This document shows, piece by piece, positions 8,423 through 28,883 of a DNA stretch of 45,806 nucleotides. The notes under the pieces are model-generated. The model was not told the DNA's origin and made no database searches. It was given only the letters and a program-made list of their open reading frames with translations. The first letter of the stretch is position 1; each line of letters starts with the position of its first letter. Position numbers and translations under genes: made by a program. The DNA comes from Patescibacteria group bacterium (GTDB taxonomy: Bacteria > Patescibacteriota > Minisyncoccia > Minisyncoccales > PEYH01), in NCBI GenBank assembly GCA_034722415.1, contig JAYENY010000006.1:1-45806 (forward strand), in the 5' to 3' direction.

Positions 8423-8469
8423 AAAATTATATTAATAATTAACCTTTATTAAATTGTAGCAGAAAATCT

Positions 8470-8501
8470 AAAAAAAAGAAAAGGGCGCACAATGTGCACC
8501 C
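8470..8501 (-). terminator. rho-independent terminator of the G+C-rich cassette A
   Basis: Minus strand reads GGGTGCAC-ATT-GTGCGCCC (8-bp stem, one G:U pair) followed by TTTTCTTTTTTTT, 17 nt after the stop of the 113-aa ORF. Confidence 0.75.
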
Positions 8502-8517
8502 AGAGAAAGACTCTTTA

Positions 8518-8859
8518 CTAGTTCCATAGCTGAAACAGAAAGTCGTCTATATCATCTCTAGCAACGATAACGAAGACGACACTTATTACAGCAACAATTA
8601 TGCAAACAACCATCAATTGTAACAAATTGTGGATATATAGCGCCAAGCACACTCCACTCCACATCAATGTCATGCCTATGGCATGCCAAAGAACTCCTGA
8701 TCGAGCTTTGCTCCAAATAGTAGGTCCGAATGTTATTATAATCCCTCCTGCAGCAACTAGCACAGCTGATACCAATAAGTTGTGATGTATCAAACCAAAC
8801 GTTGCTGCTAGAATAGCACAGCCAAACCCTGCGACAAACAGACCTATCTTAAGACTCAT
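8518..8859 (-). CDS. small integral membrane protein (approx. 4 TM segments), unknown function; cassette A gene 2
   Basis: Track ORF of 113 aa, hydrophobic throughout. Strong SD AAGGGAGGAAAG immediately upstream of the ATG. Higher G+C than its neighbours. Has its own terminator. Confidence 0.7.
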   Translation of the reverse strand: MSLKIGLFVAGFGCAILAATFGLIHHNLLVSAVLVAAGGIIITFGPTIWSKARSGVLWHAIGMTLMWSGVCLALYIHNLLQLMVVCIIVAVISVVFVIVARDDIDDFLFQLWN

Positions 8860-8975
8860 CTTTCCTCCCTTAAAAAGGATTCGATCTTTGCTAAGCGAAC
8901 ATCACATTGATTTGGTTTATTGTTGCCAAGCTCAAACGAAAACGCAACAAGCCCTATCGGAGCTGAACGATTCAT
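8856..8975 (-). CDS. 39-codon small ORF translationally coupled to the downstream membrane protein; cassette A gene 1
   Basis: Not in the track. My translation is MNRSAPIGLVAFSFELGNNKPNQCDVRLAKIESFLREER. GGAGG sits 5 nt upstream of the ATG (8973-8975). Its TGA overlaps the next ATG (ATGA at 8856-8859). Confidence 0.45.
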   Translation of the reverse strand: MNRSAPIGLVAFSFELGNNKPNQCDVRLAKIESFLREER

Positions 8976-9013
8976 GTCTGCCTCCTATTCTTTTGTTTAT
9001 GAGCTAATATAGA

Positions 9014-9042
9014 AGATTACAATCTTCTTCTTATTCTGTCAA
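9014..9042 (-). promoter_or_regulatory. putative sigma70-type promoter of cassette A (TTGACA-N17-TAATCT)
   Basis: TTGACA on the minus strand at 9037-9042, inside the last codons of map. A TAATCT -10-like hexamer at 9014-9019. The spacer contains the palindrome GAAGATTGTAATCTTC. Confidence 0.35.
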
Positions 9043-9774
9043 TACGCGACTACCCGATGAGGTAATAGCAATCATATGCTCAAAATGAGCAGAAAGAGAA
9101 CCGTCCATTGTTTGAAGCCCACTATTATTTGGGGCTTTTTTGATTTTACCAGAACCCATTGTGGCCATTGGCTCAAGACAAACAACCATTCCCTCCTTAA
9201 GCTCATCTCCTTTTCTTCTTTTCCCATAATTTAGAATCTCTGGATCTTCGTGTAAATCTTTGCCAATACCGTGCCCACAAAGTTCTCTAACTATATTGAA
9301 TCCTCTTTTTTCAATATAGCGTTGAATAGTATTCCCAATATCCCCAACGGTATTGCCGGGCCTAACCTTTTTTAATGCTATTCTTAAAGATTTTTTAGTT
9401 ATCATAAGTAATCGAGCTGTTTCTGGTTTAATTTCTCCAACAGGCACTGTTATTGCCATATCACTATAAAAACCTTTGTGAATAACTCCCATATCTAAGG
9501 ATAAAATATCTCCTTTTTTCAGGATATAATCCGATGGTATTCCATGAACAATAACTTCATTAACAGAAGCACACATAACTGCTGGAAAATCATTGTACCC
9601 TAAGAATGCTGGTTTAGTTTTGGATTTAAAAATAAGCTCTTCAGCGAGCTTGTTTAATTCTTGCGTGGTAACTCCTGGCTTTACTTCTTTTTTCAAATCT
9701 CTCATAATTTGTGCCAAGATTTTTCCACCTTCTGCCATTATTTTAATTTCTTCTGGGGTTTTGATAAAAATCAT
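9031..9774 (-). CDS. map: type I methionyl aminopeptidase
   Basis: Track ORF of 247 aa. Typical MetAP motifs (VHGIP, DMG..., GHGIG). Operon position after adk. Confidence 0.95.
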   Translation of the reverse strand: MIFIKTPEEIKIMAEGGKILAQIMRDLKKEVKPGVTTQELNKLAEELIFKSKTKPAFLGYNDFPAVMCASVNEVIVHGIPSDYILKKGDILSLDMGVIHKGFYSDMAITVPVGEIKPETARLLMITKKSLRIALKKVRPGNTVGDIGNTIQRYIEKRGFNIVRELCGHGIGKDLHEDPEILNYGKRRKGDELKEGMVVCLEPMATMGSGKIKKAPNNSGLQTMDGSLSAHFEHMIAITSSGSRVLTE

Positions 9775-10436
9775 TTAATTTTTTCTAAAATTTCCTGCTC
9801 AACATCTTTAATCGATTGCTCTCCATCTATTTCAACTAAAATCCCCTTATCTTTGTAATAGTCAACAACTGGCAACACTTCCTCCTTAAACCATCTTAAT
9901 CTTTCTTTTATATCCTCTGTTTCATCGTCTTCTCTTGTGTATAACTCTCCCCCACATTTATCACATTTCTCAAGAGTTTTAAATTCTCCAATATATGGAA
10001 AAATTTTTCCGCAGTTTCTACAAATTCTTCTTTTAAGTAGTCTATCCATTGATTCCTTCTCTGAAATATTAATGAAAAGCACTTTTTTATCCGTATTCCA
10101 ATCATACCAATCAAGAGCCAATTCCATCATTTGTGCTTCAAATGTTGTTCTTGGACTACCATCAAAAACAAAGCCCTTGATTTCTGAATTTTGTTTAAAC
10201 TCTTCTAGTTTGTCCATCCAAAGCTTAAAAATTACTGGCGTCGGTACTCTTTTTCCGTCATCAATCGATTCTGCAATTTTACTTCCGGTATAATCTTCTT
10301 TCTTTTTCCGAGCTCTCAATAAATCACCACTGCCAATATATTGCAATTCAAATTTTTTCTGCAAAAGTTTTGTTTGAGTCCCCTTTCCAGCGCCAGGTGG
10401 TCCGATAATTATAATAACTTGTTTAGTGTTTTCCAT
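9771..10436 (-). CDS. adk: adenylate kinase (zinc-lid form)
   Basis: Track ORF of 221 aa. P-loop GPPGAGKGTQ. Lid with CRNCG...CDKCG. Confidence 0.95.
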   Translation of the reverse strand: MENTKQVIIIIGPPGAGKGTQTKLLQKKFELQYIGSGDLLRARKKKEDYTGSKIAESIDDGKRVPTPVIFKLWMDKLEEFKQNSEIKGFVFDGSPRTTFEAQMMELALDWYDWNTDKKVLFINISEKESMDRLLKRRICRNCGKIFPYIGEFKTLEKCDKCGGELYTREDDETEDIKERLRWFKEEVLPVVDYYKDKGILVEIDGEQSIKDVEQEILEKIK

Positions 10437-10437
10437 C

Positions 10438-11715
10438 TTAAATAGTCTCGTACTCTCTCATTTGAAGCTGAGCATTTATTTGTTTGATTGTATCTAAAAC
10501 AACAGAGACAACAATTAATAGAGATGTGCCTCCAACTAAAAATCCAAACGTAGTTACTCCTGTGGTTCCCTGAATGAAATAAGGCATAATCGCTACAGTC
10601 CCTAAAAATGTTGCTCCAATAAATAGAATACGATGAAGGATGTAGGATATAAAATGAGCAGTTGATTCTCCGGGCCTAATTCCTGGGACAAAACCCCCCA
10701 TTTTCTTTAAATTATTAGAGATAGATTTTGGATCAAAAGTAACCATGGTATAAAAATATGTAAATGCAAAAACCATGGCAAAATATGTTGCTCCCCAAGC
10801 AATACGATGATTCTGGAAATTAGCTACGCTTTGAGCAATTCTACCAACGAGACCATCTGCTCCGGCTAAGAACTGCGCTATCATTCCAGGAAACAGCATT
10901 ATTGATAATGCAAAAATAATAGGGATAACTCCTGCTGGATTAACATTTAATGGTAAATAAGTAGAAGCGCCTCCATACATTCTTTTTCCTCTAACTCTTT
11001 TCGCATAGGAAATAGGAATATTCCGCCTAGCTTCTGTTACCATAACAATGCCAACAATTATTAAAAAGGCGGCGCCAAAAAAGAATAAATAACTAGGAAG
11101 CTGTGCAGGATCCCATCCCACCATAAACTGCTGCACATTAACAGGAACGCTTGAAACAATTCCTGCAAAAATAATCAAAGATACTCCATTTCCAATCCCT
11201 TTTTCTGTAATCATTTCTCCTAACCAGACCAAGAAAAAAGTACCAGCAGTAACAGTAACAATCGAACTTATCATCATTACTAGCGGCATCTGGCCAATGG
11301 CCCCCTGTTTCTGTAACAAACTAAGCATTGCATAGCCTTGCATAATGGCCATAGGAATTGTCAAAAGACGACCATACTGATTAAATTTTTGCTTACCTGC
11401 GGCTCCCTCCTCTTTATAAATCCTTTCCATGGCAGGAAAAATCATTGTTAAAAGTTGTAAAATAATAACAGATGTAATATATGGTCCTATCCCTAACATA
11501 GCAATAGAAAGTTTAGACAATGTTCCTCCTGTAAACACATTTAATAATCCAAACATTTGAAACTTTTCGAAAAAACCCTCTAGATCCTGAATATTAACTC
11601 CTGGCACAGGAATATTTGCCATGAGACGAAAAATAAAAAGCATTGCCAAAACAAAAAGAATTTTATTTCTCAAATCCTTTATTTTAAAAATTTGAATTAA
11701 TTTATTAAAATTCAT
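10438..11715 (-). CDS. secY: preprotein translocase subunit SecY
   Basis: Track ORF of 425 aa, polytopic. Conserved SecY segments (GIGPYITSVIILQLL, GNGVSLIIFAGI). Position after rplO. Confidence 0.95.
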   Translation of the reverse strand: MNFNKLIQIFKIKDLRNKILFVLAMLFIFRLMANIPVPGVNIQDLEGFFEKFQMFGLLNVFTGGTLSKLSIAMLGIGPYITSVIILQLLTMIFPAMERIYKEEGAAGKQKFNQYGRLLTIPMAIMQGYAMLSLLQKQGAIGQMPLVMMISSIVTVTAGTFFLVWLGEMITEKGIGNGVSLIIFAGIVSSVPVNVQQFMVGWDPAQLPSYLFFFGAAFLIIVGIVMVTEARRNIPISYAKRVRGKRMYGGASTYLPLNVNPAGVIPIIFALSIMLFPGMIAQFLAGADGLVGRIAQSVANFQNHRIAWGATYFAMVFAFTYFYTMVTFDPKSISNNLKKMGGFVPGIRPGESTAHFISYILHRILFIGATFLGTVAIMPYFIQGTTGVTTFGFLVGGTSLLIVVSVVLDTIKQINAQLQMREYETI

Positions 11716-12143
11716 AATACCTTACCGCCAACTTTCTCAATTTTTGTCTTAGCTTGTTCAGAAACTTGGCAATACTTGATGGTTAGTTTTTTAGTCAAAT
11801 CTCCATTAGCCAAAATCTTTACTCCCGGCGTCTTACCTCTTATTTTACGAATTATTCTTTTATCAATCAAGGCCTTAGGGCTTACAATCTCACTATCTTC
11901 AAATTTTCGCTCAAGAATAGTTAAATTAACTTGTAATAAATCTGGTTTTTTACTTGAAACTCTATATCCTCTTAATTTTGGATATCTTTTAATTACTCCT
12001 CTAATAATTGGTTCTTTCCCTGAACCTGATCTAGATTTTTGCCCTTTCATTCCCCGACCAGAATAAGTCCCGCGTTTGCCTCCTCGGCCAACGCGTTTTT
12101 TTCTTCTCTGGGTACTACTTGGTTTTATTTGATGCAATTGCAT
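11712..12143 (-). CDS. rplO: 50S ribosomal protein L15
   Basis: Track ORF of 143 aa. GRGGKRGTYSGRGMKGQKSRSG motif. Confidence 0.95.
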   Translation of the reverse strand: MQLHQIKPSSTQRRKKRVGRGGKRGTYSGRGMKGQKSRSGSGKEPIIRGVIKRYPKLRGYRVSSKKPDLLQVNLTILERKFEDSEIVSPKALIDKRIIRKIRGKTPGVKILANGDLTKKLTIKYCQVSEQAKTKIEKVGGKVL

Positions 12144-12148
12144 ATTAT

Positions 12149-12616
12149 TTATGGCTTAAGCTTTTGCAAGGCCAACATGGTTGCTCTCGCATTATTTAAT
12201 TTATTTCTTGTGCCTCCTAAAATTTTAGAAGAAACATTTCTTATCCCAGCTAAAGTGCAAATTACTCGCACAGTTCCACCAGCTACCAACCCTCGTCCCT
12301 CTCTCTGCGGCCTTAGAAGCACTATTGCTGCTCCTAATTTAACTCTTACTTCGTGTGGAATACTACCCTCTTTAGTTATTGGCACGGTAATTAATTTTTT
12401 CTTAGCTACCTTGATTGCTTTTTCAACGGCTTGAGCAACATCTAGCCCTTTTGCCACGCCTACTCCTACTTGATTTTTCTTATCTCCAACTACAACTACT
12501 GCTCTAAATCTCATTTGTTTTCCTCCGGCAGTTACCCTAACTACCCTATTCAAAGCTAAAAGCTTTGAGTCAAACTCATCCTTCTCTTTTCTCATTGGTC
12601 GTGGTCTTTGAAACAT
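12149..12616 (-). CDS. rpsE: 30S ribosomal protein S5
   Basis: Track ORF of 155 aa. LNRVVRVTAGGKQMRFRAVVVVGD motif. Directly abuts rplO with a 5-nt gap, so there is no rpmD. Confidence 0.95.
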   Translation of the reverse strand: MFQRPRPMRKEKDEFDSKLLALNRVVRVTAGGKQMRFRAVVVVGDKKNQVGVGVAKGLDVAQAVEKAIKVAKKKLITVPITKEGSIPHEVRVKLGAAIVLLRPQREGRGLVAGGTVRVICTLAGIRNVSSKILGGTRNKLNNARATMLALQKLKP

Positions 12617-12620
12617 AATA

Positions 12621-12968: not shown

Positions 12969-12979
12969 AAAATTATAGT

Positions 12980-13525: not shown

Positions 13526-13529
13526 ATAT

Positions 13530-13919: not shown

Positions 13920-13920
13920 A

Positions 13921-14662: not shown

Positions 14663-14683
14663 ATTAATAATTTATCCTGATTA

Positions 14684-14989: not shown

Positions 14990-14994
14990 AATAT

Positions 14995-16183: not shown

Positions 16184-16187
16184 AATT

Positions 16188-18401: not shown

Positions 18402-18908
18402 TTATCTAGGTAAAACTTCTATTTCCTGTCCTTTTTTAATTTTAACAATTGCCTTTTTATATCCCTTTCTCCATCCTTGAGTCTTTCCTAAACGCCTTTT
18501 TTTCGGTGGTACATTAATAATCCTTACACTTTCTACTTTCACTCCATATACATCTGATACGGCTTTCTTAATCTCTATCTTATTAGAACGACTAGAAACT
18601 CTAAACATATATTGATTCTCGCTAGTTAACTCAGTAGCCTTTTCTGTAATATGTGGCCTTTTTAACACTTTCCATGCAACTTCTGACTTAATTATCTTTT
18701 TAGGCTTAGCAACTTTAACTGGTGCTTCAACTGTTTTCTCTTTTTCTTTCTTGATAGTCTCCTTTTTCTTTACTGCTGGCTTTCCTTTCTTTTCTGTTAA
18801 CGGTTTGGGTTTCTTTTTAACTTCTTTTTCTTTTCCAAAATCCTTCCGAGATCTCTGTGGTTCGGGTTTTTCTTTTAATTTCTTTTTGAAAACATCAAAT
18901 ACTGACAT
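18402..18908 (-). CDS. rplW: 50S ribosomal protein L23 with an approx. 70-aa Lys-rich N-terminal extension
   Basis: Track ORF of 168 aa. The C-terminal approx. 95 aa (VLKRPHITEKAT...AIVKIKKGQEIE) look like L23. The N-terminus is a low-complexity K/E/P tract. Confidence 0.9.
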   Translation of the reverse strand: MSVFDVFKKKLKEKPEPQRSRKDFGKEKEVKKKPKPLTEKKGKPAVKKKETIKKEKEKTVEAPVKVAKPKKIIKSEVAWKVLKRPHITEKATELTSENQYMFRVSSRSNKIEIKKAVSDVYGVKVESVRIINVPPKKRRLGKTQGWRKGYKKAIVKIKKGQEIEVLPR

Positions 18909-18909
18909 G

Positions 18910-19554
18910 TTATTTTAGAAAAGTATCTTTAATTGTTTTGATTGATTCTTCTGATAAAATTAGATATTTAAAAGAAAGAATATCTAGAATATTTAAATTG
19001 CGAGCTTCTATAAGCTCAACTCCTGGGATATTTTTAATTGCCTTTAAAAGAACGTCGTCTTTTTTCGGAACAACAATAAGAGAACTTTTAAGGGCTTCTT
19101 TTTTCATCTTTTTTAATAAATTATTTAAAAGATTATAAAGAATCTTTGTTTTTGGTTCTTCGATTGAAATCTTGTCAATAACTAATATTTCATTATCGTT
19201 GGCTTTAGCGGAAAGCGCGGAAAATAGCGCTGCTCTTCTCATATTTTTAGGAATAACCTTCTTGTAATTCCTATCGTTTCTAGGGCCAAATGTAATTCCC
19301 CCACCCTTCCATATGGGCGATCTACTTGAGCCATGTCTTGCTCGCCCAGTTCCTTTTTGTCTCCATGGTTTTCGGCCTCCACCTCGAACCTCTCCTTTAT
19401 TTTTTGTGTGAGCTGTTACCTGTCTTTTATTTGATTGCATACTAACAACCACCTGATGTATTAAATCTGGATTAAAATCTTTTTCAAAGATTTCTTTAGG
19501 CAGTTTTACTTGCCCTATTTTCTCGCCTTTTTGGTTGTATGTATTGACATTCAT
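18910..19554 (-). CDS. rplD: 50S ribosomal protein L4
   Basis: Track ORF of 214 aa. RGGGRKPWRQKGTGRARHGS motif. Confidence 0.95.
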   Translation of the reverse strand: MNVNTYNQKGEKIGQVKLPKEIFEKDFNPDLIHQVVVSMQSNKRQVTAHTKNKGEVRGGGRKPWRQKGTGRARHGSSRSPIWKGGGITFGPRNDRNYKKVIPKNMRRAALFSALSAKANDNEILVIDKISIEEPKTKILYNLLNNLLKKMKKEALKSSLIVVPKKDDVLLKAIKNIPGVELIEARNLNILDILSFKYLILSEESIKTIKDTFLK

Positions 19555-19572
19555 GGTTTAATTTGGTATGAT
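19544..19572 (+). promoter_or_regulatory. near-consensus sigma70 promoter of cassette B (TTGACA-N17-TATGAT with extended TG)
   Basis: TTGACA at 19544-19549, just downstream on the plus strand of the rplD start codon (19552-19554, opposite strand). A 17-nt spacer ends in TGG. TATGAT at 19567-19572. Confidence 0.6.
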
Positions 19573-19600
19573 ATAAATATCTCATCGGGAGGTGAAGATA

Positions 19601-19777
19601 ATGCGAGTAGTTATCATTCATGCATGTTTGTCGGCGCTAGCAATCTTTGTAACAGGAACACTCATTCACTGGATTACAGGGTCGATTGCATGGGCTTCTA
19701 CCACAGGAGTTACTGTTCTGGTCTTGGCGGGTCTAGATTTTTGGCGCAGGATCCAGAACGGACAGGTGTATATGTGA
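19601..19777 (+). CDS. 58-aa two-TM small membrane protein encoded antisense inside the S10 operon (cassette B)
   Basis: Track ORF 19592..19777 with a GTG start. I prefer the ATG at 19601, 8 nt after GGGAGG (19587-19592). The sequence is MRVVIIHACLSALAIFVTGTLIHWITGSIAWASTTGVTVLVLAGLDFWRRIQNGQVYM. Two hydrophobic stretches. A promoter upstream and a hairpin plus T7 run downstream. Confidence 0.6.
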   Translation: MRVVIIHACLSALAIFVTGTLIHWITGSIAWASTTGVTVLVLAGLDFWRRIQNGQVYM

Positions 19778-19788
19778 TACGCATCTCA

Positions 19789-19842
19789 CACCTCGCACAT
19801 CGCGCATCGAAGGCCACAAGGCTAGAGGTGCGCACTTTTTTT
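19789..19842 (+). terminator. putative intrinsic terminator of cassette B
   Basis: GCGCA(19802-06)...TGCGC(19829-33) stem, or alternatively CACCTC(19789-94)/GAGGTG(19825-30). An inner GGCC-ACAA-GGCT hairpin. Followed by a TTTTTTT run (19836-42) that overlaps the rplC stop codon on the other strand. Confidence 0.5.
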
Positions 19843-22274: not shown

Positions 22275-22586
22275 TTAAAATGGTAAATCTTCAACTGTTA
22301 ATTCATTCGACGGCATCTCTTCTTCTGTAAGTAAATCAGTTCTTTGAATAACTTCTGATTCCTTCTTCCCCATATCTTTCACCTTTTCTGTGCTTTTGTC
22401 AAGCACATTTTCGGGGAAAAGAGAATCTTCCTTTTTTTCTATTACAGAATCCTGTGAAGATTCAAGAGGTAGTGACTGTTGACTGCTTTCAAATGGAGAA
22501 ACAATCAAAATTGGTTCGCCATTCTCTACAATGATCACCTTTGCCCTCTCTTTATCCATTATCTTTTTTAGCTGCTTTAAGTCCAT
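22275..22586 (-). CDS. hypothetical acidic protein; Phd/YefM-like N-terminus, C-terminal ...VEDLPF tail
   Basis: Track ORF of 103 aa. AKVIIVENGEPILIVSPFE resembles the antitoxin-type beta-strand motif. The rest is a Ser/Glu-rich, apparently disordered region. Lies between fusA and tuf. Confidence 0.55.
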   Translation of the reverse strand: MDLKQLKKIMDKERAKVIIVENGEPILIVSPFESSQQSLPLESSQDSVIEKKEDSLFPENVLDKSTEKVKDMGKKESEVIQRTDLLTEEEMPSNELTVEDLPF

Positions 22587-22609
22587 AAATTATTTAATGA
22601 TTTATTTTT

Positions 22610-24712
22610 TTAACTTTTACCCTCGACTATTTGTTGAGTAATGTTAGCTGGAACTTGTTCATAATGACTAAACTCCATTGTAAATCCGCCCCTACCATGA
22701 GTAGTAGACCTTAAGGAAGTAGCATAACCAAACATTTCTGCCAATGGAACAGTTGCTTCTATCACTTTCATGGCTGCCCTATCAAAACTTTCTTTAATTC
22801 CACCCCTTCTAGAGCTTAAATCACCGATTGTGTCTCCAAAAGATTCAGATGGAACAGTTACTTCTAATCTCATAATTGGTTCAAGTAAAATTGGCTTTGC
22901 TTGTCTAGCAGCTGTTTGAAATGCTTGCGAACCAGCTATTTTAAAGGCTGCCTCAGAAGAGTCTACGTCATGAAAAGATCCATCATAAAGAGTTACTTCC
23001 ACGTCTACTATTGGATATCCTGCTATAACACCCTTAGTTAAAGCTTCTTTCACTCCCTTTCGAACAGCAGGAATAAATTCTTTTGGAATAACGCCTCCTT
23101 TAATTTCATCAATAAATTCAAATCCTTCTCCTCTTTCTTTTGGTTTAATCTTTAACCAAACATGACCATATTGCCCTCTACCACCACTCTGCTTAATATA
23201 TTTACCCTCTGCTTTTGATTCGTCAAGAATGGTTTCCTTGTATGCAACTTGTGGTCTGCCAATTCCAGCTTCTACATTAAACTCTTTCTTCATTCTGTCC
23301 ACTAATATCTCTAAATGTAACTCCCCCATTCCTGAAATAATGGTTTCTCCAGTTTCTTCGTCAGTCCTAATTTTAAAAGTTGGATCTTCCTCAGATAATT
23401 TTTTCAAAGCTAATCCTAATTTTTCTTGATCTGCTTTGGTTTTAGGTTCGATTCTAATAGAAATTACCGGCTCTGGAAATGATATTTCTTCTAAAACAAT
23501 TGGATTTTCTATATCGCAAAATGTATGTCCAGTAGTAACATTCTTTAATCCAATAGCAGCTGCAATATCTCCAGCATAAAGCTCCTCGATATCCTCTCTA
23601 CTATTAGCGTGCATTCTCACCATCCTTCCAAATCGAATCTTATCTCCAGTGCTTGAATTTAAAAGCGCGGTTCCAGAAGTTAACTTTCCAGAATAAATAC
23701 GGAAATATGTTAAAGCACCCACAAATGGGTCAGTAGCTATTTTAAAGGCTAAGGCAGAAAAAGGTTCTTCGTCTTCTGCTTTCCTCTGAGTATCTTCTCC
23801 TGTTTTGGGATTCTTGCCAGTAACTGGAGGTAGTTCTGATGGGCTTGGAAAATAATAAATTACGCCATCTAAAAATTGTTGTACTCCTTTATTCTTTAAG
23901 GCAGAACCACAAAATACAGGAACTAAATTACAACTAATAACTCCTTTTCGAATTGCTGCTCTAATCTCCTTTATATCAAGCTCTTTTCCTTCTAAATATT
24001 TTTCTAAAAGATCGTGGTCTTCTGCAGCTACTTTTTCAAGCATTTTATTCCTCCATTCTTGGGCCTTCTCTTTCATATCATCTGGTATGTCTTCTGATAT
24101 TACATTTTCTCCGTGCCCGCCCTCAAATTTCAATAATTTCATAGTAATCAAATCAATCGCTCCAGAAAAATCAGCTTCCTGACCAACTGGAATTTGTAGA
24201 GCTACAGCATTGGATGTAAGCCGATCCAAAATGGTTTGCAAACTATATTCAAAATTTGCACCCATTCGATCTAATTTATTAACAAAACACATTCTAGGAA
24301 CATTATATTTATCTGCCTGACGCCAAACAGTTTCTGATTGAGCTTCTACTCCTGCCACTCCGTCGAATATGACAATAGCGCCATCAAGGACACGTAAAGA
24401 ACGCTGAACTTCAGCTGTAAAATCAATATGTCCTGGAGTATCAATAATATTTATTTTATGTTGCCTTTCTTGATTATCTCCATCTTCTAATGGATGCCAA
24501 AAACAAGTTGTTGCTGCTGAAGTAATCGTAATTCCCCTTTCTCTTTCTTGCTCCATCCAATCCATAACAGCTTCTCCTTGATGAACCTCACCTATTTTAT
24601 GAGAGATTCCTGTGTAAAATAAAACTCGCTCGGTTATTGTGGTTTTACCGGCGTCAATATGGGCAATAATGCCAATATTTCTACATTTTTCCATTGGGAA
24701 TTGTCTGGGCAT
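22610..24712 (-). CDS. fusA: elongation factor G
   Basis: Track ORF of 700 aa. [28 protein letters not shown] motifs. Confidence 0.97.
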
Positions 24713-24767
24713 AAATCTTAAATATCGATATGTTTAAATACCGAAACTGTAAAATATTATTTTATAA

Positions 24768-25226
24768 CTACCATCTAAAATGCGCGAATGCTTTGTTGGC
24801 TTCAGCCATTCTGTGAACGTTTTCTTTCTTTTTAATTGCTTTTCCTGTATTATCGGCTCCCTCGAGTAATTCTTTTGCTAATCGTTCACTCATTGACCCC
24901 TTTCCTTCTTTTGCAGCTCCGATAATCCAGCGCATAGACAATGCTAATCGTCTTTCTTTTGAAACTTCAACTGGTACTTGATATTTAGCTCCTCCTATCC
25001 TTCGTGACCTAACCTCTAAAGCAGGTGAAGTATTCTGAATAGCCTTTTCGAAAAGCTCAACTGGATCCTGTTTACCTTTTTCTTTTAAAACCTCGAGAGC
25101 ATCATAAACTATCTTTCGAGCCACGCTCTTTTTTCCTTGTTCCATTACATAATTAATAAATTTAGCAATAATAATATTGTTATAGCGAGGATCTGGAATT
25201 AATTCAATTTTCTTTTTTTTAGCCAT
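24768..25226 (-). CDS. rpsG: 30S ribosomal protein S7
   Basis: Track ORF of 152 aa. Typical S7 C-terminus ...NKAFAHFRW. Confidence 0.95.
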   Translation of the reverse strand: MAKKKKIELIPDPRYNNIIIAKFINYVMEQGKKSVARKIVYDALEVLKEKGKQDPVELFEKAIQNTSPALEVRSRRIGGAKYQVPVEVSKERRLALSMRWIIGAAKEGKGSMSERLAKELLEGADNTGKAIKKKENVHRMAEANKAFAHFRW

Positions 25227-25231
25227 ATTAT

Positions 25232-25642
25232 TTAAACTGATTTTTTGGTTCCATATTTACTTCTTCCTTGTTTTCTTCCTTCTACTCCACCAGCGTCTAA
25301 TACTCCTCTTACAACATGGTATCTAACTCCAGGCAAATCTCTAACTCCCCCTCCCCTTATCATGACTACAGAATGCTCTTGAAGTTGATGTCCTTCTCCT
25401 GGGATATAGGCAGTTACTTCCATGCCGTTACTCAAGCGAACTCTCGCCACCTTTCTTAAAGCAGAATTCGGTTTCTTTGGAGTGCTTGTAAAAACTCTAA
25501 GACAAACACCTCTCTTAAAAGGAGAAGAATGTTTTTTTGGTCTATTTTTTAATGTATTAAAACTAAAATCCGTAGCAGGAGTCTTGCTCTTTTTTATCTT
25601 CCTTTTCCGTCCTTTTTTAATTAGTTGATGTATTGTTGGCAT
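25232..25642 (-). CDS. rpsL: 30S ribosomal protein S12
   Basis: Track ORF of 136 aa. [13 protein letters not shown]-terminus and [16 protein letters not shown] motif. Confidence 0.97.
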
Positions 25643-25685
25643 ATCGTTGAATTAGCATTTAACATAACAAATCATTAATTTTTTG

Positions 25686-26318
25686 TCAAACCGGGATTCC
25701 TGTTATTAAAGTCATTAACCAGATAACTATTTTGATAATATATTCAAAAAGAAAAAAGATAATAAAAATTAAGACAAATAATCCGTATTGAGATAAAAAG
25801 ATTTTAATTTTTTCAGCGCTTCGAGGTAAAAAGGCAAAAAGAATATGTGAGCCATCAAGAGGTGGAAATGGCATTAGATTAAAAACAGCTAGAATAAGAT
25901 TTATTTGAACAATATATAGAAAAATAAAAGCAATTCCTTGAGTAGGGTAAAATCCCGGCAAAAATCTTAAAATTAATCCAAAAATTAATGCTAAAGAAAT
26001 ATTTGCCAAGGGCCCTGCTATTGCTACTTTTGCACTTCCATATTTCTGGTCTTTAAAATTTCGCGGATTAACTGGTACTGGCTTTGCCCAACCAAAAATT
26101 ATCCCTCCAGTACCAAAAAAATTCATTAAGATTAAAATCCCTGGCAAAATAATAGAGCCAACTGGATCTAAATGTTTCAACGGATTAAGAGTTAAACGCT
26201 TTGCATATTTAGCCGTAGGATCACCTAATGCATAAGCAACCCAACCGTGCGCAACCTCGTGAAAAACCACTGAAAACAAAAAAATGATTATTGCAATTAA
26301 TATTTCTAATCCTGCCAT
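25686..26318 (-). CDS. site-2 protease family (M50) membrane zinc metalloprotease
   Basis: Track ORF of 210 aa, polytopic. HEVAHG zinc motif in the first TM region. NLMPFPPLDG motif. Confidence 0.8.
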   Translation of the reverse strand: MAGLEILIAIIIFLFSVVFHEVAHGWVAYALGDPTAKYAKRLTLNPLKHLDPVGSIILPGILILMNFFGTGGIIFGWAKPVPVNPRNFKDQKYGSAKVAIAGPLANISLALIFGLILRFLPGFYPTQGIAFIFLYIVQINLILAVFNLMPFPPLDGSHILFAFLPRSAEKIKIFLSQYGLFVLIFIIFFLFEYIIKIVIWLMTLITGIPV

Positions 26319-26348
26319 AGTATTGATATCTTAACAGAAAGTGTTATT

Positions 26349-26386
26349 AAAGAAAAGTGCGGCACAGCTGTTATTAGCTCTGCCGC
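26349..26386 (-). terminator. rho-independent terminator of cassette D
   Basis: Minus strand reads GCGGCAGAGCT-AATAAC-AGCTGTGCCGC (10 of 11 bp) followed by ACTTTTCTTT. Confidence 0.7.
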
Positions 26387-26424
26387 GAGTAAATTTGCCA
26401 ATCAATCTTGACTGTTTCCCTTAT

Positions 26425-26694
26425 TCAATCGTCTGAAATAAGGGCTAGAACCCGTTGACAAGCGCTATGAAGAGTCTCTCCTTTCCGACGATTCAAGTAG
26501 ATGTCATTCTTATCCACATAACTTACTCCAGCTTCTTGAGCTTTCTTACCAACAAGAACTTCTTTGATTCTTCGAGCTACTCCAGAATCGTCAGGTGGTC
26601 TTATAACGTAACGCTGGACACTGAGGTCCCATGCGCCCTCAAACTTAACTGTACGACCACAAACTTGAATAGAATACATCAAGAAATTAGGCAT
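26425..26694 (-). CDS. hypothetical soluble 89-aa protein (cassette D)
   Basis: Track ORF. GGGAGG (26699-26704, minus strand) lies 4 nt upstream of the ATG. Visibly higher G+C. Own promoter-like element and terminator. I recognise no family. Confidence 0.6.
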   Translation of the reverse strand: MPNFLMYSIQVCGRTVKFEGAWDLSVQRYVIRPPDDSGVARRIKEVLVGKKAQEAGVSYVDKNDIYLNRRKGETLHSACQRVLALISDD

Positions 26695-26719
26695 TATTCC
26701 TCCCTTTGGTACTGTTCAT

Positions 26720-26747
26720 ATCTTAATGAAATAGAAAAAAATGTCAA
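26720..26747 (-). promoter_or_regulatory. putative promoter of cassette D (TTGACA-N16-TAAGAT)
   Basis: Minus-strand TTGACA at 26742-26747 and TAAGAT at 26720-26725. Confidence 0.4.
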
Positions 26748-26753
26748 ATCTTC

Positions 26754-26782
26754 TTGCCAAATCACAAAAAATAGATTACAAT
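26754..26782 (+). promoter_or_regulatory. putative rpmB promoter (TTGCCA-N17-TACAAT)
   Basis: TTGCCA at 26754-26759 and TACAAT at 26777-26782, about 30 nt upstream of the rpmB ATG. Confidence 0.45.
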
Positions 26783-26811
26783 CTTCATATATTTGATACT
26801 TAAAGAAAACT

Positions 26812-27000
26812 ATGCCTAGAATTTGTGCAATTTGTGGAAAAAAATCAACAATGGGTAGGAAATATAACAAGCTGATGTCTAAATATAATCCTACGCCTAA
26901 AAAACGCAAAAAACCCAACCTTCAATGGGGTATTTTGCCTTCTGGTGAAAGAGCTAAAATTTGTACTCGTTGCAAAAAGACACTGTTAAAACAAAGATAA
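26812..27000 (+). CDS. rpmB: 50S ribosomal protein L28 (Cys-containing form)
   Basis: Track ORF of 62 aa. MPRICAICGKKSTMG...PNLQ...CTRCKK is typical of L28. One of only two plus-strand genes I accept; the other is the 58-aa cassette B ORF. Confidence 0.88.
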   Translation: MPRICAICGKKSTMGRKYNKLMSKYNPTPKKRKKPNLQWGILPSGERAKICTRCKKTLLKQR

Positions 27001-27032
27001 ATTAAGAAAAATATATTGTAGGGTTTTCAATG

Positions 27033-27063
27033 AAAAAACGGAGAAAGATTCTCCGCTTTTTTG
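27033..27063. terminator. bidirectional terminator shared by the convergent rpmB and serpin genes
   Basis: AAAAAA-CGGAGAA-AGA-TTCTCCG-CTTTTTT, a 7-bp stem flanked by an A-run and a T-run. Confidence 0.75.
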
Positions 27064-27081
27064 TTCTCTACTTTTTAAAAA

Positions 27082-28359
27082 TTAAATATTTGGATTCGTT
27101 ACTCTACCCATAAACAGAATATTTCCCGTTAGATTATGTTCAATCAAAAACATAAATGGATGATCTGCGCGGAATGTTAATATTTTCGGTTCATTATTTG
27201 GGCCAGCTGATAATTCTTCCATTATAACGGCAGTAGCTGCAGCTGCCTCTGTCCCCTCTTCATTCACCTCAACAAAAGCTTGATGAATAACTTCGCTTAT
27301 AAACAAATCCTTATCCCCTGTCATCCCCGAAAAATCTGCTGAAGCTGATAGGGCGATAGGCATTCCCATCTCGCGTAAATCTTCAGCCATAAGATATTTA
27401 GTTTCAAACTTAAATTTAGGAATGAATATTTTAACTCTTTCTTCTTTTAACTCTTCTTTCCATTTTAATAAGTTTTGAGAATTAAATAAATTTTCTAACT
27501 TGTCCAGATTATCCTCTTTTGGAAGAAAAATTAACATAGACAATTCTTCACCCGAATAAGGCATTTCTAAAATCTGAAGATCTTCATTCTCTGCGTAATT
27601 GAATCTTGCCTCTTTGTCAGTACGTTCCATCATTGAAACTCTAACAATATTATTTTTGTCTATCTTAAAATCTTGGTCCCTAGTATTGTCTTCGTCAAAT
27701 TGTTGGACCCAACTCCCCTTGAAATAAATAGCATTTGTAAGGACTAATCTTGTGGCTGGATTAAGAACGTTTTTAGGGATTAAATCCTTTATTTTATTAT
27801 TTGTTTTCTCCTCCACCCAATTATTAATTATTATTCTTGCTTTTTCAGCATTTCTCTGAAAATCTACATTTGTTACTTTTCCACCATAATATTGGTCTAT
27901 GATATTAAAATAATCATTTAAAAACTCAAAATTCTTTTCCGCCCAAAGTGCGTTGGCTGTATGTAGCTTATAATCTTTATCTTCTCTATTTATCTCACCG
28001 AACATTTTAGCATATTCTGTTCTTCGTCTCTCATCATCGTCGGGGAAATAAAATACTGAACGCATTTGTTCGGCAGTCTCTCCTCTTGCCCCTTCATATG
28101 TCATTGCTAAAGAAGAAGACATGCTATAAGGCGAGAAAAAAATATTGCCTTCCTCTTTGTTTTTTAAATAATAATAAAAATCCAAAGCAAATTCATTATT
28201 AGCTTCGGTAACATTAGCTACGTCTTCTGGGTCTATCTTTGTTCTTGGAGTTACAGGATTTAATCCTGGAATATAAAATTCGTCTTCTTGAAATAGAAAT
28301 ATAGCAATAGCAACAATGACCAACCCTATTATTATAATTGTGAAAATTTTCCAATTCAT
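27082..28359 (-). CDS. serpin (serine protease inhibitor) with an N-terminal membrane anchor or signal
   Basis: Track ORF of 425 aa. FFSPYSMSSSLAMTYEGARGETAEQM. Inhibitory-type hinge EEGTEAAAATAV. FRADHPFMFLI. N-terminal hydrophobic helix IFTIIIIGLVIVAIAIFLF. Confidence 0.88.
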   Translation of the reverse strand: MNWKIFTIIIIGLVIVAIAIFLFQEDEFYIPGLNPVTPRTKIDPEDVANVTEANNEFALDFYYYLKNKEEGNIFFSPYSMSSSLAMTYEGARGETAEQMRSVFYFPDDDERRRTEYAKMFGEINREDKDYKLHTANALWAEKNFEFLNDYFNIIDQYYGGKVTNVDFQRNAEKARIIINNWVEEKTNNKIKDLIPKNVLNPATRLVLTNAIYFKGSWVQQFDEDNTRDQDFKIDKNNIVRVSMMERTDKEARFNYAENEDLQILEMPYSGEELSMLIFLPKEDNLDKLENLFNSQNLLKWKEELKEERVKIFIPKFKFETKYLMAEDLREMGMPIALSASADFSGMTGDKDLFISEVIHQAFVEVNEEGTEAAAATAVIMEELSAGPNNEPKILTFRADHPFMFLIEHNLTGNILFMGRVTNPNI

Positions 28360-28413
28360 ATTAATCTTCTTATTAATTATTCTTATCCTTTATCTTAACA
28401 TGATTTAAATAAT

Positions 28414-28477
28414 AAAAAATCCAACCTTGCGGTTGAAAAAAATTGAAGGGGCCAAGACTATAGTCCTAGCTCCCTTC
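28414..28477 (-). terminator. two tandem intrinsic terminators ending cassette C
   Basis: Minus strand reads GAAGGG-A-GCTAGGAC-TATA-GTCTTGGC-C-CCTTC then AATTTTTTT. This is followed by CAACC-GCAA-GGTTG then GATTTTTT. Confidence 0.7.
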
Positions 28478-28486
28478 GTATTGTTC

Positions 28487-28642
28487 CTAACTCGTTGCGT
28501 CAGGAAGCCTATCTCTAATCGTGAGCGGTTCATGCCCAGATCTCTGCATTCTAACGCGGCGAAGATATTCGAGCCACCTGGCTTCCCGATCTTTTTTAGC
28601 ATTAGTCACCGCTGAAATCTTAGCGCAACCTGCTGCCTTCAT
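28487..28642 (-). CDS. 51-codon basic small ORF (cassette C), coding status uncertain
   Basis: Not in the track. My translation is MKAAGCAKISAVTNAKKDREARWLEYLRRVRMQRSGHEPLTIRDRLPDATS. GAGGGAGGG (28651-28659) lies 8 nt upstream of the ATG (28640-28642). The stop TAG is 10 nt before the terminator stem. Confidence 0.4.
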   Translation of the reverse strand: MKAAGCAKISAVTNAKKDREARWLEYLRRVRMQRSGHEPLTIRDRLPDATS

Positions 28643-28848
28643 TAATACCACCCTCCCTCGATCTCCTTAAACTCCGAACTAATTCAGAGACTAAGGAAAT
28701 ATAGAGAGGAGAAGGTGGCGCCATTGCTTGCCACCTTCTCCGAACAGGGCTCTCAACCCATGGGAACAATCGGAGAAAAATTATTTTAACTTTCCTTCGA
28801 TTGCTCCCGGAGGGAGGAGCAATCATTGTGAAATGTACTAGAGAGTAC
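28643..28848 (-). ncRNA. approx. 200-nt G+C-rich structured leader, or the 5' part of an unclassified ncRNA (cassette C)
   Basis: Minus-strand hairpins: GTACT-CTCT-AGTAC; ATTGCTCC-[TCCCTCCG]-GGAGCAAT; a perfect 11-bp GAGAAGGTGGC/GCCACCTTCTC stem that competes with TTCTCCG/CGGAGAA; and AAGGAAA/TTTCCTT. The loop CCTCCCTC is complementary to the downstream SD GAGGGAGG. Confidence 0.4.
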
Positions 28849-28854
28849 ACCAAT

Positions 28855-28883
28855 ACCATATCATACTCTCTCTAGCTTGTCAA
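28855..28883 (-). promoter_or_regulatory. putative promoter of cassette C (TTGACA-N17-TATGGT with extended TG)
   Basis: Minus-strand TTGACA at 28878-28883, just upstream of the stop codon (28872-28874) at the 3' end of the HIT gene. TGA-TATGGT with the -10 hexamer at 28855-28860. Confidence 0.5.

What the first reader, a model, noticed from the sequence alone, without database searches (positions are those of the whole stretch)
8423..28883. Four G+C-rich mini-cassettes with strong Shine-Dalgarno sites in an otherwise SD-less core genome
Housekeeping starts in this window have no purine-rich SD upstream: tuf (..aaaaaaaattATG), rpsJ (..ctttagaacATG), rpsL (..tcaacgatATG) and fusA (..taagatttATG), and the same holds for trxA, rubrerythrin, the serpin, HIT and others. 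In contrast, five starts carry GGGAGG or GGAGG at 4-8 nt spacing: 8975, 8859, 19601, 26694 and 28642. All five lie in short segments that are visibly G+C-richer than their surroundings. My hand count gives about 47% for 19601-19780 and about 53% for 28501-28560, against about 28% for 19441-19500. Each segment also has its own TTGACA -35 box, which abuts or overlaps the end of the neighbouring conserved gene, and its own GC-rich intrinsic terminator. This matches the architecture of moron-like insertions: an autonomous promoter-ORF-terminator unit of foreign composition. Here the units are wedged into core operon junctions (map/GT2, rplD/rplC, S2P/rpmB, HIT/serpin). They could be a dispersed family of acquired small-protein or RNA genes that use a different translation-initiation regime from the host genes.
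Basis: partly seen in the sequence, partly recalled or inferred. Interest (0 to 1): 0.75.

Follow-up and report, generated by a model that had tools for sequence, protein, structure and literature searches.

The report
SD-led small genes in SD-poor CPR genome
In a tiny-genome (Patescibacteria/CPR) bacterium whose genes almost never use the classical ribosome-binding site, the only genes in this window that do are five small G+C-rich genes; they have four different histories, and one sits behind a conserved, previously uncatalogued regulatory RNA leader.

Summary
In this 34.5% GC Parcubacteria-like window, 52 of 58 ORFs lack any SD. All five sense-strand GGAGG motifs outside core genes sit 4-9 nt before an ATG that opens a small ORF. 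These ORFs have GC 0.41-0.50 and GC3 0.31-0.44, against 0.24±0.03 for core genes.

The interpretation, one dispersed family of moron-like insertions, is only partly right. The four units are unrelated to each other.
- R2 (19555-19840) is a real ~265-nt lineage-specific insertion between rplC and rplD. It carries an orphan 58-aa membrane ORF antisense to the S10 operon.
- R3 (p89) lies in an rpmB|S2P slot that holds different SD-led, GC-rich promoter-ORF-terminator units in several relatives and is empty in others.
- R1 is a slot after map. Its first SD is shared with the closest relative, but the gene behind it differs.
- R4 is not an insertion. It has a conserved promoter and a ~200-nt structured leader, with covariation-supported helices that sequester the SD. 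The leader precedes a conserved 43-74-aa basic protein. Rfam, Pfam and PDB give no match.

No phage source was found. Function, translation and the 16S anti-SD remain untested.

The parts
8856..8975 (-). R1: p39, a 39-codon ORF with SD GGAGG at 8985-8981 (5-nt spacing). Its stop overlaps the next start (ATGA).
   Evidence: The gene was called in the Logan contig. The region from the map stop to this SD aligns with L001, where the SD leads a DUF218 gene.
8518..8859 (-). R1: TM113, a 113-aa very hydrophobic protein (GRAVY 1.41) with SD GGGAGG at 8869-8864 (4-nt spacing).
   Evidence: No Pfam, PADLOC or PHROG family. No relative in any fetched locus. The only viral hit is a 26-aa low-complexity match.
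8483..8501 (-). R1: intrinsic terminator (8-bp stem with 6 GC pairs, then a T-run).
19544..19572 (+). R2: promoter TTGACA-17-TATGAT (11/12 match, TG-extended). The -35 box lies inside rplD codons 3-5 on the other strand; L001 has TTGACT at that position.
19601..19777 (+). R2: as58, a 58-aa hydrophobic ORF antisense to the S10 operon, with SD GGGAGG at 19587-19592 (8-nt spacing).
   Evidence: It lies within a ~265-nt insertion absent from L001, L003, L004, L006 and L007. No homologue among 5.8 billion proteins, in viral contigs or in the fetched loci.
19801..19841 (+). R2: terminator hairpin (GCGCAUC...GGUGCGC) plus U7. It abuts the rplC stop codon and is unidirectional, because the operon strand reads an A-run before the stem.
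26720..26747 (-). R3: promoter TTGACA-16-TAAGAT, directly after the conserved TTGGCAAGA box of the rpmB|S2P spacer.
   Evidence: The same TTGGCAAGA..TTGAC(A/T)tttt..TAAGAT layout occurs in L003 and L015.
26425..26694 (-). R3: p89, an 89-aa soluble protein (also called as 84 aa from Met6), with SD GGGAGG at 26704-26699 (4-nt spacing).
   Evidence: AlphaFold2 gives pLDDT 87.5 and pTM 0.78 with a beta-beta-beta-alpha-alpha-beta-beta-alpha order. No PDB fold match (best E 0.13). Full-length homologue L015a (blastp 1e-5).
26349..26386 (-). R3: terminator (GCGGCAGAGCU..AGCUGUGCCGC plus a U-run). It is homologous, with compensatory changes, to the terminator before S2P in L003/L004.
28855..28883 (-). 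R4: promoter TTGACA-17-(TGA)TATGGT. The -35 box overlaps the last codons of HIT. It is conserved even where HIT is deleted (L001).
28643..28849 (-). R4: structured 5' leader. H1 pairs 28825-28816 with 28807-28798, and its loop carries the invariant CCCUCC (28814-28809). H2 pairs 28808-28788 with 28782-28762 and excludes H1. H3 pairs 28741-28730 with 28719-28708. The SD helix pairs 28710-28703 with 28658-28651.
   Evidence: H2: 21 pairs, 95% paired, 9 pairs with compensatory changes, 0/500 shuffles reach this, slid controls at most 3. H1: 97.5% paired, mostly invariant. SD helix: 23 pairs, 10 with compensatory changes. The SD is paired in the MFE fold of all 8 homologues. No Rfam family at gathering or at E up to 10.
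28487..28642 (-). R4: p51, a 51-aa basic protein (12 K+R, 6 D+E) with SD GGGAGGG at 28657-28651 (9 nt from the GGAGG core to the ATG).
   Evidence: Homologues of 43-74 aa follow the same leader in L014/L022, L023, L001/L017/L018, L006, L007, L020, L021 and L015. Two were called independently as 51-aa proteins (P0002, P0003). No Pfam or PDB match.
28436..28477 (-). R4: terminator hairpin plus U7.
28620..28859 (-). 'p79' ORF overlapping the R4 leader. It is judged spurious: its conservation is conservation of the RNA.
   Evidence: tblastn hits in L001 and L007 coincide with the leader. Indels of 1-2 nt between homologues break the frame.

Best explanation
The four segments are four unrelated, independently transcribed small-gene units. 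What they share is their mode of translation initiation. In this Parcubacteria-like CPR genome nearly all genes start behind A/U-rich, SD-free sequence. A small minority of short, G+C-rich, mostly clade-restricted genes carry a canonical GGAGG 4-9 nt before ATG.

Shown:
(i) R4 is a vertically inherited locus. It has a strong promoter and a ~200-nt leader with two mutually exclusive helices (H1 and H2). A third helix buries the SD, paired either with a nearby pyrimidine strand or with the invariant distal CCCUCC. A conserved small basic protein follows.
(ii) R3 is one occupant of a variable rpmB|S2P slot. In relatives this slot holds other SD-led, GC-rich promoter-ORF-terminator units or nothing. 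p89 is predicted to be a folded protein.
(iii) R1 is a slot after map whose SD is ancestral but whose gene content differs from the closest relative.
(iv) R2 is a recent ~265-nt insertion. It places a promoter-SD-58-aa membrane ORF-terminator unit antisense between rplC and rplD.

Inferred:
- The 16S rRNA of this lineage keeps a usable CCUCC anti-SD.
- G+C-rich, structured mRNAs cannot use the unstructured-leader route of core genes, so they depend on SD pairing.
- For R4 this dependence is exploited for control. When H2 forms, the 5' CCCUCC strand is free to close on the SD (translation off). When H1 forms, CCCUCC is held in a hairpin loop. The trigger is unknown.
- as58 most likely acts as a small membrane-active peptide. 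Its mRNA is fully complementary to the abundant S10-operon transcript, an arrangement like a type I toxin.
For: - SD scarcity and the five exceptions.
- The same scarcity in relatives, whose rare strong-SD genes are again small GC-rich orphans: L003 96 aa, L015 98 and 93 aa, L021 115 aa, L023 103 aa, L001 DUF218.
- Atypical GC3.
- R2 as an insertion. Other inserts at operon junctions (an MNT-plus-HEPN-looking pair in L008, read by eye from the translations, and an antisense TM unit in L021).
- R3 slot variation and homologous flanks.
- p89 fold confidence.
- R1 shared SD.
- R4 conservation and structure.
- p51 family.
- All SD cores read GGAGG, the complement of the canonical anti-SD core.
- Literature: the anti-SD motif was detected in only 48% of Parcubacteria 16S genes and bS21 is often absent (PMC9297842). 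An SD-blind lineage with a single SD-led autoregulated gene is known in Bacteroidia (PMC9976891 and PMC13000453, abstracts only).
Against: - No expression or translation data exist.
- The 16S 3' end of this organism or its relatives could not be retrieved, so SD function is inferred from position only.
- as58, p39 and TM113 have no homologue anywhere. as58 was not called by the gene finder used for the Logan contig.
- p51 shows only weak purifying selection (5 synonymous against 7 non-synonymous codon changes between L014 and L023), and its model is of low confidence (pLDDT 68.5).
- The link between GC-rich mRNA and a need for SD is an inference, not a test.
- The baseline covers only 45 kb plus about 200 kb of relatives, and it is rich in ribosomal genes.
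Confidence: 0.6

Rival explanations
1. One reading: all four are moron-like insertions of foreign DNA, members of one dispersed family of acquired small-protein genes that brought their own SD-based initiation signals.
For: - Autonomous promoter, SD, ORF and terminator layout.
- GC3 above the core maximum.
- R2 is absent from five relatives.
- The R3 slot is empty in L001, L006, L007 and L020.
- Unrelated cargo occupies the same slot in L021 and L023.
Against: - No similarity among the four units.
- R4 is conserved across at least nine contigs, including its promoter, leader and ORF.
- The R1 SD is shared with L001.
- The R3 flanks are homologous in L003/L004, and its promoter region in L015.
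- No phage, plasmid-like or defence homologues, and no phage genes in the window.
- High GC persists in conserved members, so it is not a sign of recent arrival.
Confidence: 0.1
2. The ORFs are not translated. The GC-rich islands are structured non-coding RNAs, and the GGAGG motifs are simply strands of helices. Examples would be an antisense RNA that modulates rplC/rplD expression and a small RNA from R4.
For: - All four transcripts fold better than shuffles: z = -8.25, -4.4, -2.3 and -3.2.
- The R4 SD is demonstrably part of a conserved helix.
- as58, p39 and TM113 are complete orphans.
- R2 is antisense to an operon.
Against: - All five sense-strand GGAGG motifs outside core genes are followed by ATG at SD-like spacing and by an open frame.
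- p89 gives a confident fold from only six sequences and has a full-length homologue.
- The p51 start, frame, length and motifs are kept through indels that are multiples of 3 nt.
- TM113 and as58 encode clean hydrophobic helices.
- The z-scores of R1-R3 include their terminators.
Confidence: 0.15
3. as58 (R2) is specifically the toxin of a type I toxin-antitoxin-like module, and the S10-operon mRNA serves as the antisense antitoxin. When ribosomal-protein transcription falls, as58 mRNA escapes pairing and the peptide damages or depolarises the membrane.
For: - 58 aa, hydrophobic, with a strong promoter and SD.
- The 5' end of the transcript can fold over the SD.
- Full antisense overlap with a highly expressed operon.
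- The same junction in L008 carries a pair of ORFs that read like an MNT antitoxin and a HEPN toxin; this was judged by eye from the translations and not profile-checked.
- L021 carries an analogous antisense TM-protein unit in the str operon.
Against: - No homology to any known type I toxin family.
- The ORF has two hydrophobic segments rather than the usual one.
- No dedicated antitoxin RNA promoter is evident.
- No expression or toxicity data exist.
- It could equally be a benign small membrane protein or a regulator of the operon through transcriptional interference.
Confidence: 0.25
4. Assembly or binning artefact: the GC-rich inserts are chimeric joins from other organisms.
For: Atypical composition. 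The organism is seen in a single sequencing run.
Against: - Independent Logan contigs are 99.99% identical across R1, R3 and R4 and keep the R2 gap.
- The inserts are short and flanked on both sides by collinear core genes.
- Analogous units occur in other assemblies.
Confidence: 0.02

Closest known systems
Phage morons (autonomous promoter-ORF-terminator units inserted between conserved prophage genes)
   Same: Self-contained transcription units with atypical base composition, wedged between conserved genes. R2 and the R3 slot show presence/absence among relatives.
   Different: The units sit in core chromosomal operon junctions of a CPR bacterium, not in a prophage. No phage relatives were found. 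R4 and the R1 SD are ancestral, not inserted.
Type I toxin-antitoxin systems (small hydrophobic toxin whose mRNA is controlled by an overlapping antisense RNA)
   Same: as58 is a 58-aa hydrophobic peptide with a strong promoter and SD, and its mRNA is fully overlapped by an opposing transcript.
   Different: The opposing transcript is a ribosomal-protein operon mRNA, not a dedicated small RNA. There is no sequence relationship to known toxin families. Toxicity is untested.
SD-sequestering cis-regulatory leaders (translational riboswitches, RNA thermometers, ribosomal-protein autoregulatory leaders)
   Same: The R4 leader has covariation-supported helices, a pair of mutually exclusive helices, and an SD buried in a conserved helix directly before the regulated ORF.
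   Different: It matches no Rfam family. The trigger (ligand, temperature or protein) is unknown. The regulated gene is an uncharacterised 43-74-aa basic protein. The most conserved element is a hairpin loop that reads like the 16S anti-SD core (CCCUCC).
Bacteroidia rpsU/bS21 circuit (an SD-blind lineage in which one gene keeps a strong SD and is autoregulated through anti-SD availability; PMC9976891, PMC7797042, PMC13000453)
   Same: An SD-poor genome in which a rare small basic-protein gene retains a strong, conserved SD.
   Different: p51 is not bS21 (hhalign probability 0.4%). Several unrelated genes here use SD, not one. Whether the anti-SD is present or occluded in this lineage is unknown.
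SD-poor translation in Parcubacteria (Tsurumaki et al. 2022, PMC9297842)
   Same: The window fits the reported pattern of a Parcubacteria subgroup with little or no SD/anti-SD use. The uL23 N-terminal extension reported there is also seen here (168 aa).
   Different: In the passages retrieved (term search), that paper reports anti-SD motif loss. It does not describe a minority class of SD-led small genes there.

Membership tests
Phage moron | Lies inside a phage or prophage genome between conserved phage genes | tested here: not met
   The neighbours are map/GT2, rplC/rplD, rpmB/S2P and HIT/serpin. No viral relatives and no significant PHROG hits.
Phage moron | Own promoter and terminator flanking a single ORF or small operon | tested here: met
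   The R1 promoter is doubtful.
Phage moron | Base composition unlike the host, and presence/absence among related genomes | tested here: inconclusive
   Composition is atypical for all units. Presence/absence is shown for R2 and the R3 slot. R4 is present in every relative examined that covers the locus, and the R1 SD is shared.
Type I toxin-antitoxin (as58) | Small (under ~60 aa) hydrophobic membrane peptide | tested here: met
   58 aa, GRAVY 1.03, best 19-residue window 2.2.
Type I toxin-antitoxin (as58) | Overlapping antisense RNA that blocks translation or stability of the toxin mRNA | tested here: inconclusive
   The S10-operon strand is fully complementary. No dedicated antitoxin promoter was identified, and there are no RNA data.
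Type I toxin-antitoxin (as58) | Sequence membership in a known toxin family | tested here: not met
   No Pfam hit above noise. No homologue in 5.8 billion proteins.
Type I toxin-antitoxin (as58) | Growth inhibition on expression | not testable with these tools
   This needs an experiment.
SD-sequestering cis-regulatory RNA (R4 leader) | Secondary structure conserved with compensatory changes | tested here: met
   H2: 9 of 21 pairs compensatory, 0/500 shuffles. SD helix: 10 of 23 pairs compensatory.
SD-sequestering cis-regulatory RNA (R4 leader) | The SD of the downstream ORF is base-paired in the conserved structure | tested here: met
SD-sequestering cis-regulatory RNA (R4 leader) | Alternative, mutually exclusive pairings (switch) | tested here: met
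   H1 and H2 share the strand GGGAGCAAUC. Both are at least 95% paired across homologues. H1 rests mostly on invariant pairs, so its support is weaker.
SD-sequestering cis-regulatory RNA (R4 leader) | A defined trigger (ligand, temperature or protein) that shifts the equilibrium | not testable with these tools
   None identified.
Any Rfam family (R1-R4) | Score at or above the family's gathering threshold | tested here: not met
   0 hits in the whole window. The best hit in R4 at E up to 10 was 20 bits against a 63-bit cutoff.
Bacteroidia-type rpsU SD autoregulation | The SD-led gene encodes bS21 | tested here: not met
   hhalign of the p51 family against E. coli bS21 gives probability 0.4%. 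No Pfam S21 hit.
Bacteroidia-type rpsU SD autoregulation | Anti-SD present in 16S rRNA but occluded on the ribosome | not testable with these tools
   No 16S sequence is present in the window or in any fetched locus.
Ribosome modulation factor (RMF) | Sequence similarity to RMF | tested here: not met
   hhalign probability 0.4%, only 4 aligned columns.

The most novel reading that the evidence does not exclude
The SD-led genes form a separately controlled translation regime. The invariant CCCUCC hairpin of the R4 leader would mimic the 16S anti-SD tail, and p51 would be a ribosome- or RNA-associated factor. Together they would set how much SD-dependent initiation the cell allows. The SD-led small genes (membrane peptides and slot proteins) would then be switched as a group. 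This would be a CPR counterpart of the bS21/rpsU circuit of Flavobacteria.
Probability: 0.06. Interest if true: 0.85.

Novelty: new member of a known kind. Interest (0 to 1): 0.5.

Why it matters
CPR/Patescibacteria are uncultivated for the most part, and how they start translation is poorly understood. Part of the Parcubacteria even seem to lack the anti-SD (PMC9297842).

A small, well-defined set of SD-led genes in an otherwise SD-free genome gives a direct handle on three questions. Is the anti-SD still functional? Which mRNAs need it? Is SD access used for regulation?

The R4 leader with p51 is a concrete, conserved candidate for a new cis-regulatory RNA and small-protein family in this clade. 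The antisense membrane-peptide units inside ribosomal-protein operons (window R2 and L021), together with the toxin-antitoxin-like pair in L008, suggest that operon junctions act as landing sites for selfish or accessory mini-genes in very small genomes.

Tried and rejected
- Rfam on the whole window (gathering) and on R4 (E up to 10): nothing credible.
- tRNA/tmRNA scan: none. I considered tmRNA, RNase P, SRP and 6S identities for R4 by eye. I dropped them because of the SD-ATG-ORF layout and the lack of any covariance-model hit.
- Pfam, NCBIfam, PADLOC and PHROGs on all five peptides and on slot proteins from relatives: no family.
- PDB sequence search with p51: none.
- Homology searches. 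as58 gave none. p89 found only itself. The profile of slot proteins found only 6 orphans. p51 found 2 small relatives.
- Viral contigs with as58 and TM113: nothing credible.
- p51 as RMF or bS21: rejected by hhalign.
- p79 as a protein: rejected, because its conservation is conservation of the RNA.
- The rplC-rplD gap in L009 as an analogous insert: rejected. It is a repetitive C-terminal extension of rplC. L011 has a gap of similar size but was not inspected.
- Flanking repeats. None at R2. A 17-nt imperfect direct repeat flanks p89 (26318-26334 and 26710-26726) but is within chance expectation.
- Strain variants lacking the inserts: none. The organism appears in only one run.
- 16S 3' end in the fetched loci: not present.
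- AlphaFold2 of p51: low confidence, one long helix.
- p39 as a remnant of the DUF218 gene: DNA similarity stops at the SD, so this is unresolved.

Full report
**What the window is.** The window is 34.5% GC, and almost all genes are on the minus strand. It carries the str/S10/spc ribosomal-protein operons, secY-adk-map, a GT2 glycosyltransferase, a site-2 protease (S2P), rpmB, a serpin, HIT, mnmA and nifS/nifU. The closest public relatives are MAGs labelled Saccharibacteria, Patescibacteria, Parcubacteria or Nealsonbacteria. L001 is the closest, at 71-95% amino-acid identity with the same gene order. uL23 has the N-terminal extension reported for CPR (PMC9297842). Logan contigs from run SRR26901924 are 99.99% identical to the window over R1, R3 and R4 and reproduce the rplC-rplD gap. 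The segments are therefore genuinely present in the genome.

**Checking the observation.** 52 of 58 ORFs of at least 80 aa have no SD-like motif. GGAGG occurs 77 times, mostly as glycine codons inside genes. All five sense-strand copies outside core genes are followed by ATG at 4-9 nt and open ORFs of 39, 113, 58, 89 and 51 codons. These ORFs have GC 0.41-0.50 and GC3 0.31-0.44. Core genes have GC3 0.242±0.033 with a maximum of 0.31. Consensus promoters and terminators are present for R2, R3 and R4. R1 has a terminator but only a poor -10.

**R2 (19555-19840).** Alignment of the rplC-rplD junction with five relatives shows 2-25 nt between the two genes in the relatives and 286 nt here, which is a clean ~265-nt insertion. 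On the plus strand, antisense to the operon, it carries four elements in order:
- a promoter, TTGACA-17-TATGAT, with an 11/12 match and a TG extension;
- GGGAGG followed 8 nt later by ATG;
- a 58-codon ORF with two hydrophobic segments;
- a hairpin plus U7 that ends at the rplC stop codon.

The -35 box lies within rplD codons 3-5, and L001 has TTGACT at that position, so it largely pre-existed. The peptide has no homologue in 5.8 billion proteins, in viral contigs or in any fetched locus. No flanking repeats were found.

Two relatives show that such junctions accept inserts. L008 carries a pair of ORFs between rplC and rplD that I read as a nucleotidyltransferase-type antitoxin and a HEPN-type toxin, from the translations only and without a profile search; the last 22 codons of rplC are duplicated beside them. 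L021 carries a promoter-SD-115-aa membrane ORF-terminator unit at 54% GC, antisense between fusA and the conserved orf103.

I therefore accept R2 as an acquired mini-gene. The type-I-toxin-like reading, with the S10 mRNA as built-in antisense, is attractive but untested.

**R3 (26319-26811).** In L001 the rpmB-S2P spacer is about 90 nt, with TTGGCA...TACAAT. In the window a ~400-nt unit follows the conserved TTGGCAAGA box. It consists of TTGACA-16-TAAGAT, GGGAGG, p89 and a terminator.

The same slot is empty in L001, L006, L007 and L020; in L008 the tblastn coordinates leave only a ~160-nt gap, which I did not inspect. It is filled elsewhere:
- L003/L004: 95-107-aa proteins (P0005, P0007, P0008).
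- L015: two tandem ORFs of 98 and 93 aa.
- L023: a 103-aa ORF behind aataGGGAGG.
- L021: two units of about 133 and 94 aa, with slot GC 0.47 against 0.37 for the locus.

Each of these has its own SD, and most have their own promoter and terminator. p89 and L015a are full-length homologues (blastp 1e-5). The others are not detectably related.

The flanks tell a different story. The window, L003 and L015 share the TTGGCAAGA..TTGAC(A/T)tttt..TAAGAT promoter layout. The window and L003/L004 share the terminator, with compensatory changes, and the S2P leader. R3 is thus an old resident of a variable slot and not a fresh insertion. Either the cargo diverges extremely fast or it is exchanged between conserved flanks.

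AlphaFold2 on six sequences gives a confident model (pLDDT 87.5, pTM 0.78) with no PDB fold match. p89 is therefore probably a real protein of unknown function.

**R1 (8423-9030).** The sequence from the map stop to AACAAAAGAATAGGAGG aligns with L001. In L001 that SD leads a DUF218-domain gene. In the window it leads p39, which is ATGA-coupled to TM113. The bodies of both ORFs are orphans. R1 is a downstream-of-map slot with an ancestral SD and different cargo. It may be transcribed with the spc-secY-adk-map operon, because its own -10 box is weak.

**R4 (28360-28871).** R4 is not an insertion. The promoter, about 170 nt of leader, the SD-ATG and a small ORF are conserved in L001. There the leader is about 91-93% identical over ~107 nt, while the flanking proteins are about 71% identical. 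A pattern scan of metagenome contigs, together with later loci, recovered the element in L014/L022, L017/L018, L020, L021, L015, L023, L006 and L007. It always follows HIT or a HIT remnant and lies before serpin, a tRNA or rpmB.

The whole transcript folds far better than shuffles (-175 kcal/mol, z = -8.25). The structural evidence for each element is:
- H2 (28808-28788 with 28782-28762): 21 pairs, 95% paired, 9 pairs with compensatory changes, 0/500 shuffles, slid controls at most 3.
- H1 (28825-28816 with 28807-28798): uses the same GGGAGCAAUC strand and so excludes H2. It is 97.5% paired but mostly invariant.
- H1 loop: the invariant CCCUCC.
- SD strand (28658-28651): pairs with a proximal pyrimidine strand in a conserved helix (23 pairs, 10 with compensatory changes). 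In the MFE folds of the window, L014 and L015 it pairs instead with the distal CCCUCC. It is paired in all eight homologues.

No Rfam family matches. The 'p79' ORF over the leader is an artefact of RNA conservation.

The downstream ORF (p51) keeps its start, its frame through 3-nt indels, its length (51 aa in four members) and the motifs MK.A..CA and Q(R/Q)SG(R)H. Selection on the protein looks weak, and the model is a low-confidence single helix. It is not RMF or bS21.

I read R4 as a translational control leader of unknown trigger in front of a small basic protein.

**General picture.** Relatives are equally SD-poor, and their rare strong-SD genes are again small, GC-rich and clade-restricted. 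A conserved clade-specific small protein with host-like composition and no SD (orf103, 22275-22586) provides the contrast. All SD cores read GGAGG, which argues for a canonical anti-SD, but I could not retrieve a 16S end.

The literature reports the anti-SD motif in only 48% of Parcubacteria 16S genes and frequent absence of bS21 (PMC9297842). In Bacteroidia an SD-blind ribosome coexists with a single SD-led autoregulated gene (PMC9976891 and PMC13000453, abstracts only).

The best-supported summary has three parts. A minority, SD-dependent class of small genes exists in this SD-poor clade. Some members are mobile or replaceable (R2, the R3 slot cargo, R1 cargo). One member (R4) is ancient and uses its SD as a regulatory target.

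**Verdict.** This is neither one family nor phage morons. R2 and the slot cargo behave like acquired cassettes, and R4 is a conserved riboregulated small gene. Novelty is moderate: a new candidate RNA leader and small-protein family, and a clear SD against non-SD split in a CPR lineage. All functional statements remain inferences.

Noticed in passing
L008:8174-9091: A pair of ORFs (138 aa and 143 aa) is inserted between rplC and rplD. I read them from the translations as a nucleotidyltransferase-type antitoxin and a HEPN-type toxin; no profile search was run. The last 22 codons of rplC are duplicated at 9024-9089, as if the insert restored or copied the gene end.
   Followed up: partly
L021:11740-12190 (minus strand): A unit at 54% GC with TTGACT promoter, AAGGAGGT, a GTG start, a 115-aa four-segment membrane ORF and a terminator. 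It lies antisense between fusA and the conserved orf103 of the str operon. It parallels window R2 but is unrelated in sequence.
   Followed up: partly
window 22275-22586 (-): A 103-aa acidic ORF between fusA and tuf with no Pfam or NCBIfam family. It is conserved in L001, L003, L004, L006, L007, L008, L017 and L021 (37-72% identity). It is AT-rich and has no SD, so it is a clade-specific gene with host-like features.
   Followed up: partly
L007:4-1389: Directly upstream of the R4 element in L007 are a 334-aa ORF with a reverse-transcriptase-like YADD motif and, on the other strand, a 137-aa ORF that resembles four-helix-bundle (Avd / 23S IVS) proteins. This could be a diversity-generating retroelement. 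It was read by eye only.
   Followed up: no
L001:489-545: HIT is reduced to a short remnant: the N-terminal codons MEDCIFCKIIKGE are joined to the C-terminal end. The R4 promoter that overlapped its 3' end is kept intact.
   Followed up: partly
L023:8432-8975: S2P appears frameshifted or split. A 57-aa N-terminal ORF is followed by tblastn matches in another frame.
   Followed up: no
window 26318-26334 and 26710-26726: An imperfect 17-nt direct repeat (14/17; TTAAGATAT.AA.A.TA on the gene strand) lies just before the p89 SD and just before the S2P ATG. It brackets 392 nt. It is within chance expectation for this AT-rich stretch, but the positions are suggestive.
   Followed up: partly
L023:7885-7960 and L003:1-60: G+C-rich repeated or hairpin-forming sequence (e.g. 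cgcccccgt...acgggggcg, with gagaacgggggcggaaag twice). In L023 it lies between the conserved TTGGCAAGA box and the slot-gene promoter; in L003 it lies just upstream of that box.
   Followed up: no
L009:8926-9140: rplC carries a C-terminal extension of tandem EETPV(A/V) repeats. This explains the apparent 247-nt rplC-rplD gap there. L011 shows a similar gap in the tblastn table but was not inspected.
   Followed up: partly
L020:900-1010: Tandem aaacaattaaacaact repeats fill the rpmB-S2P spacer in this relative.
   Followed up: no
L008:7225-7583: The rpsJ-rplC spacer is about 360 nt, against about 140-160 nt in the window and L001. It contains arginine/glycine/proline-rich spurious-looking ORFs, so it may be another G+C-rich insert or a structured RNA.
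   Followed up: no
window 18402-18908 (-): uL23 is 168 aa, with a lysine-rich N-terminal extension of about 75 aa. This matches the CPR-specific extension described in PMC9297842.
   Followed up: partly
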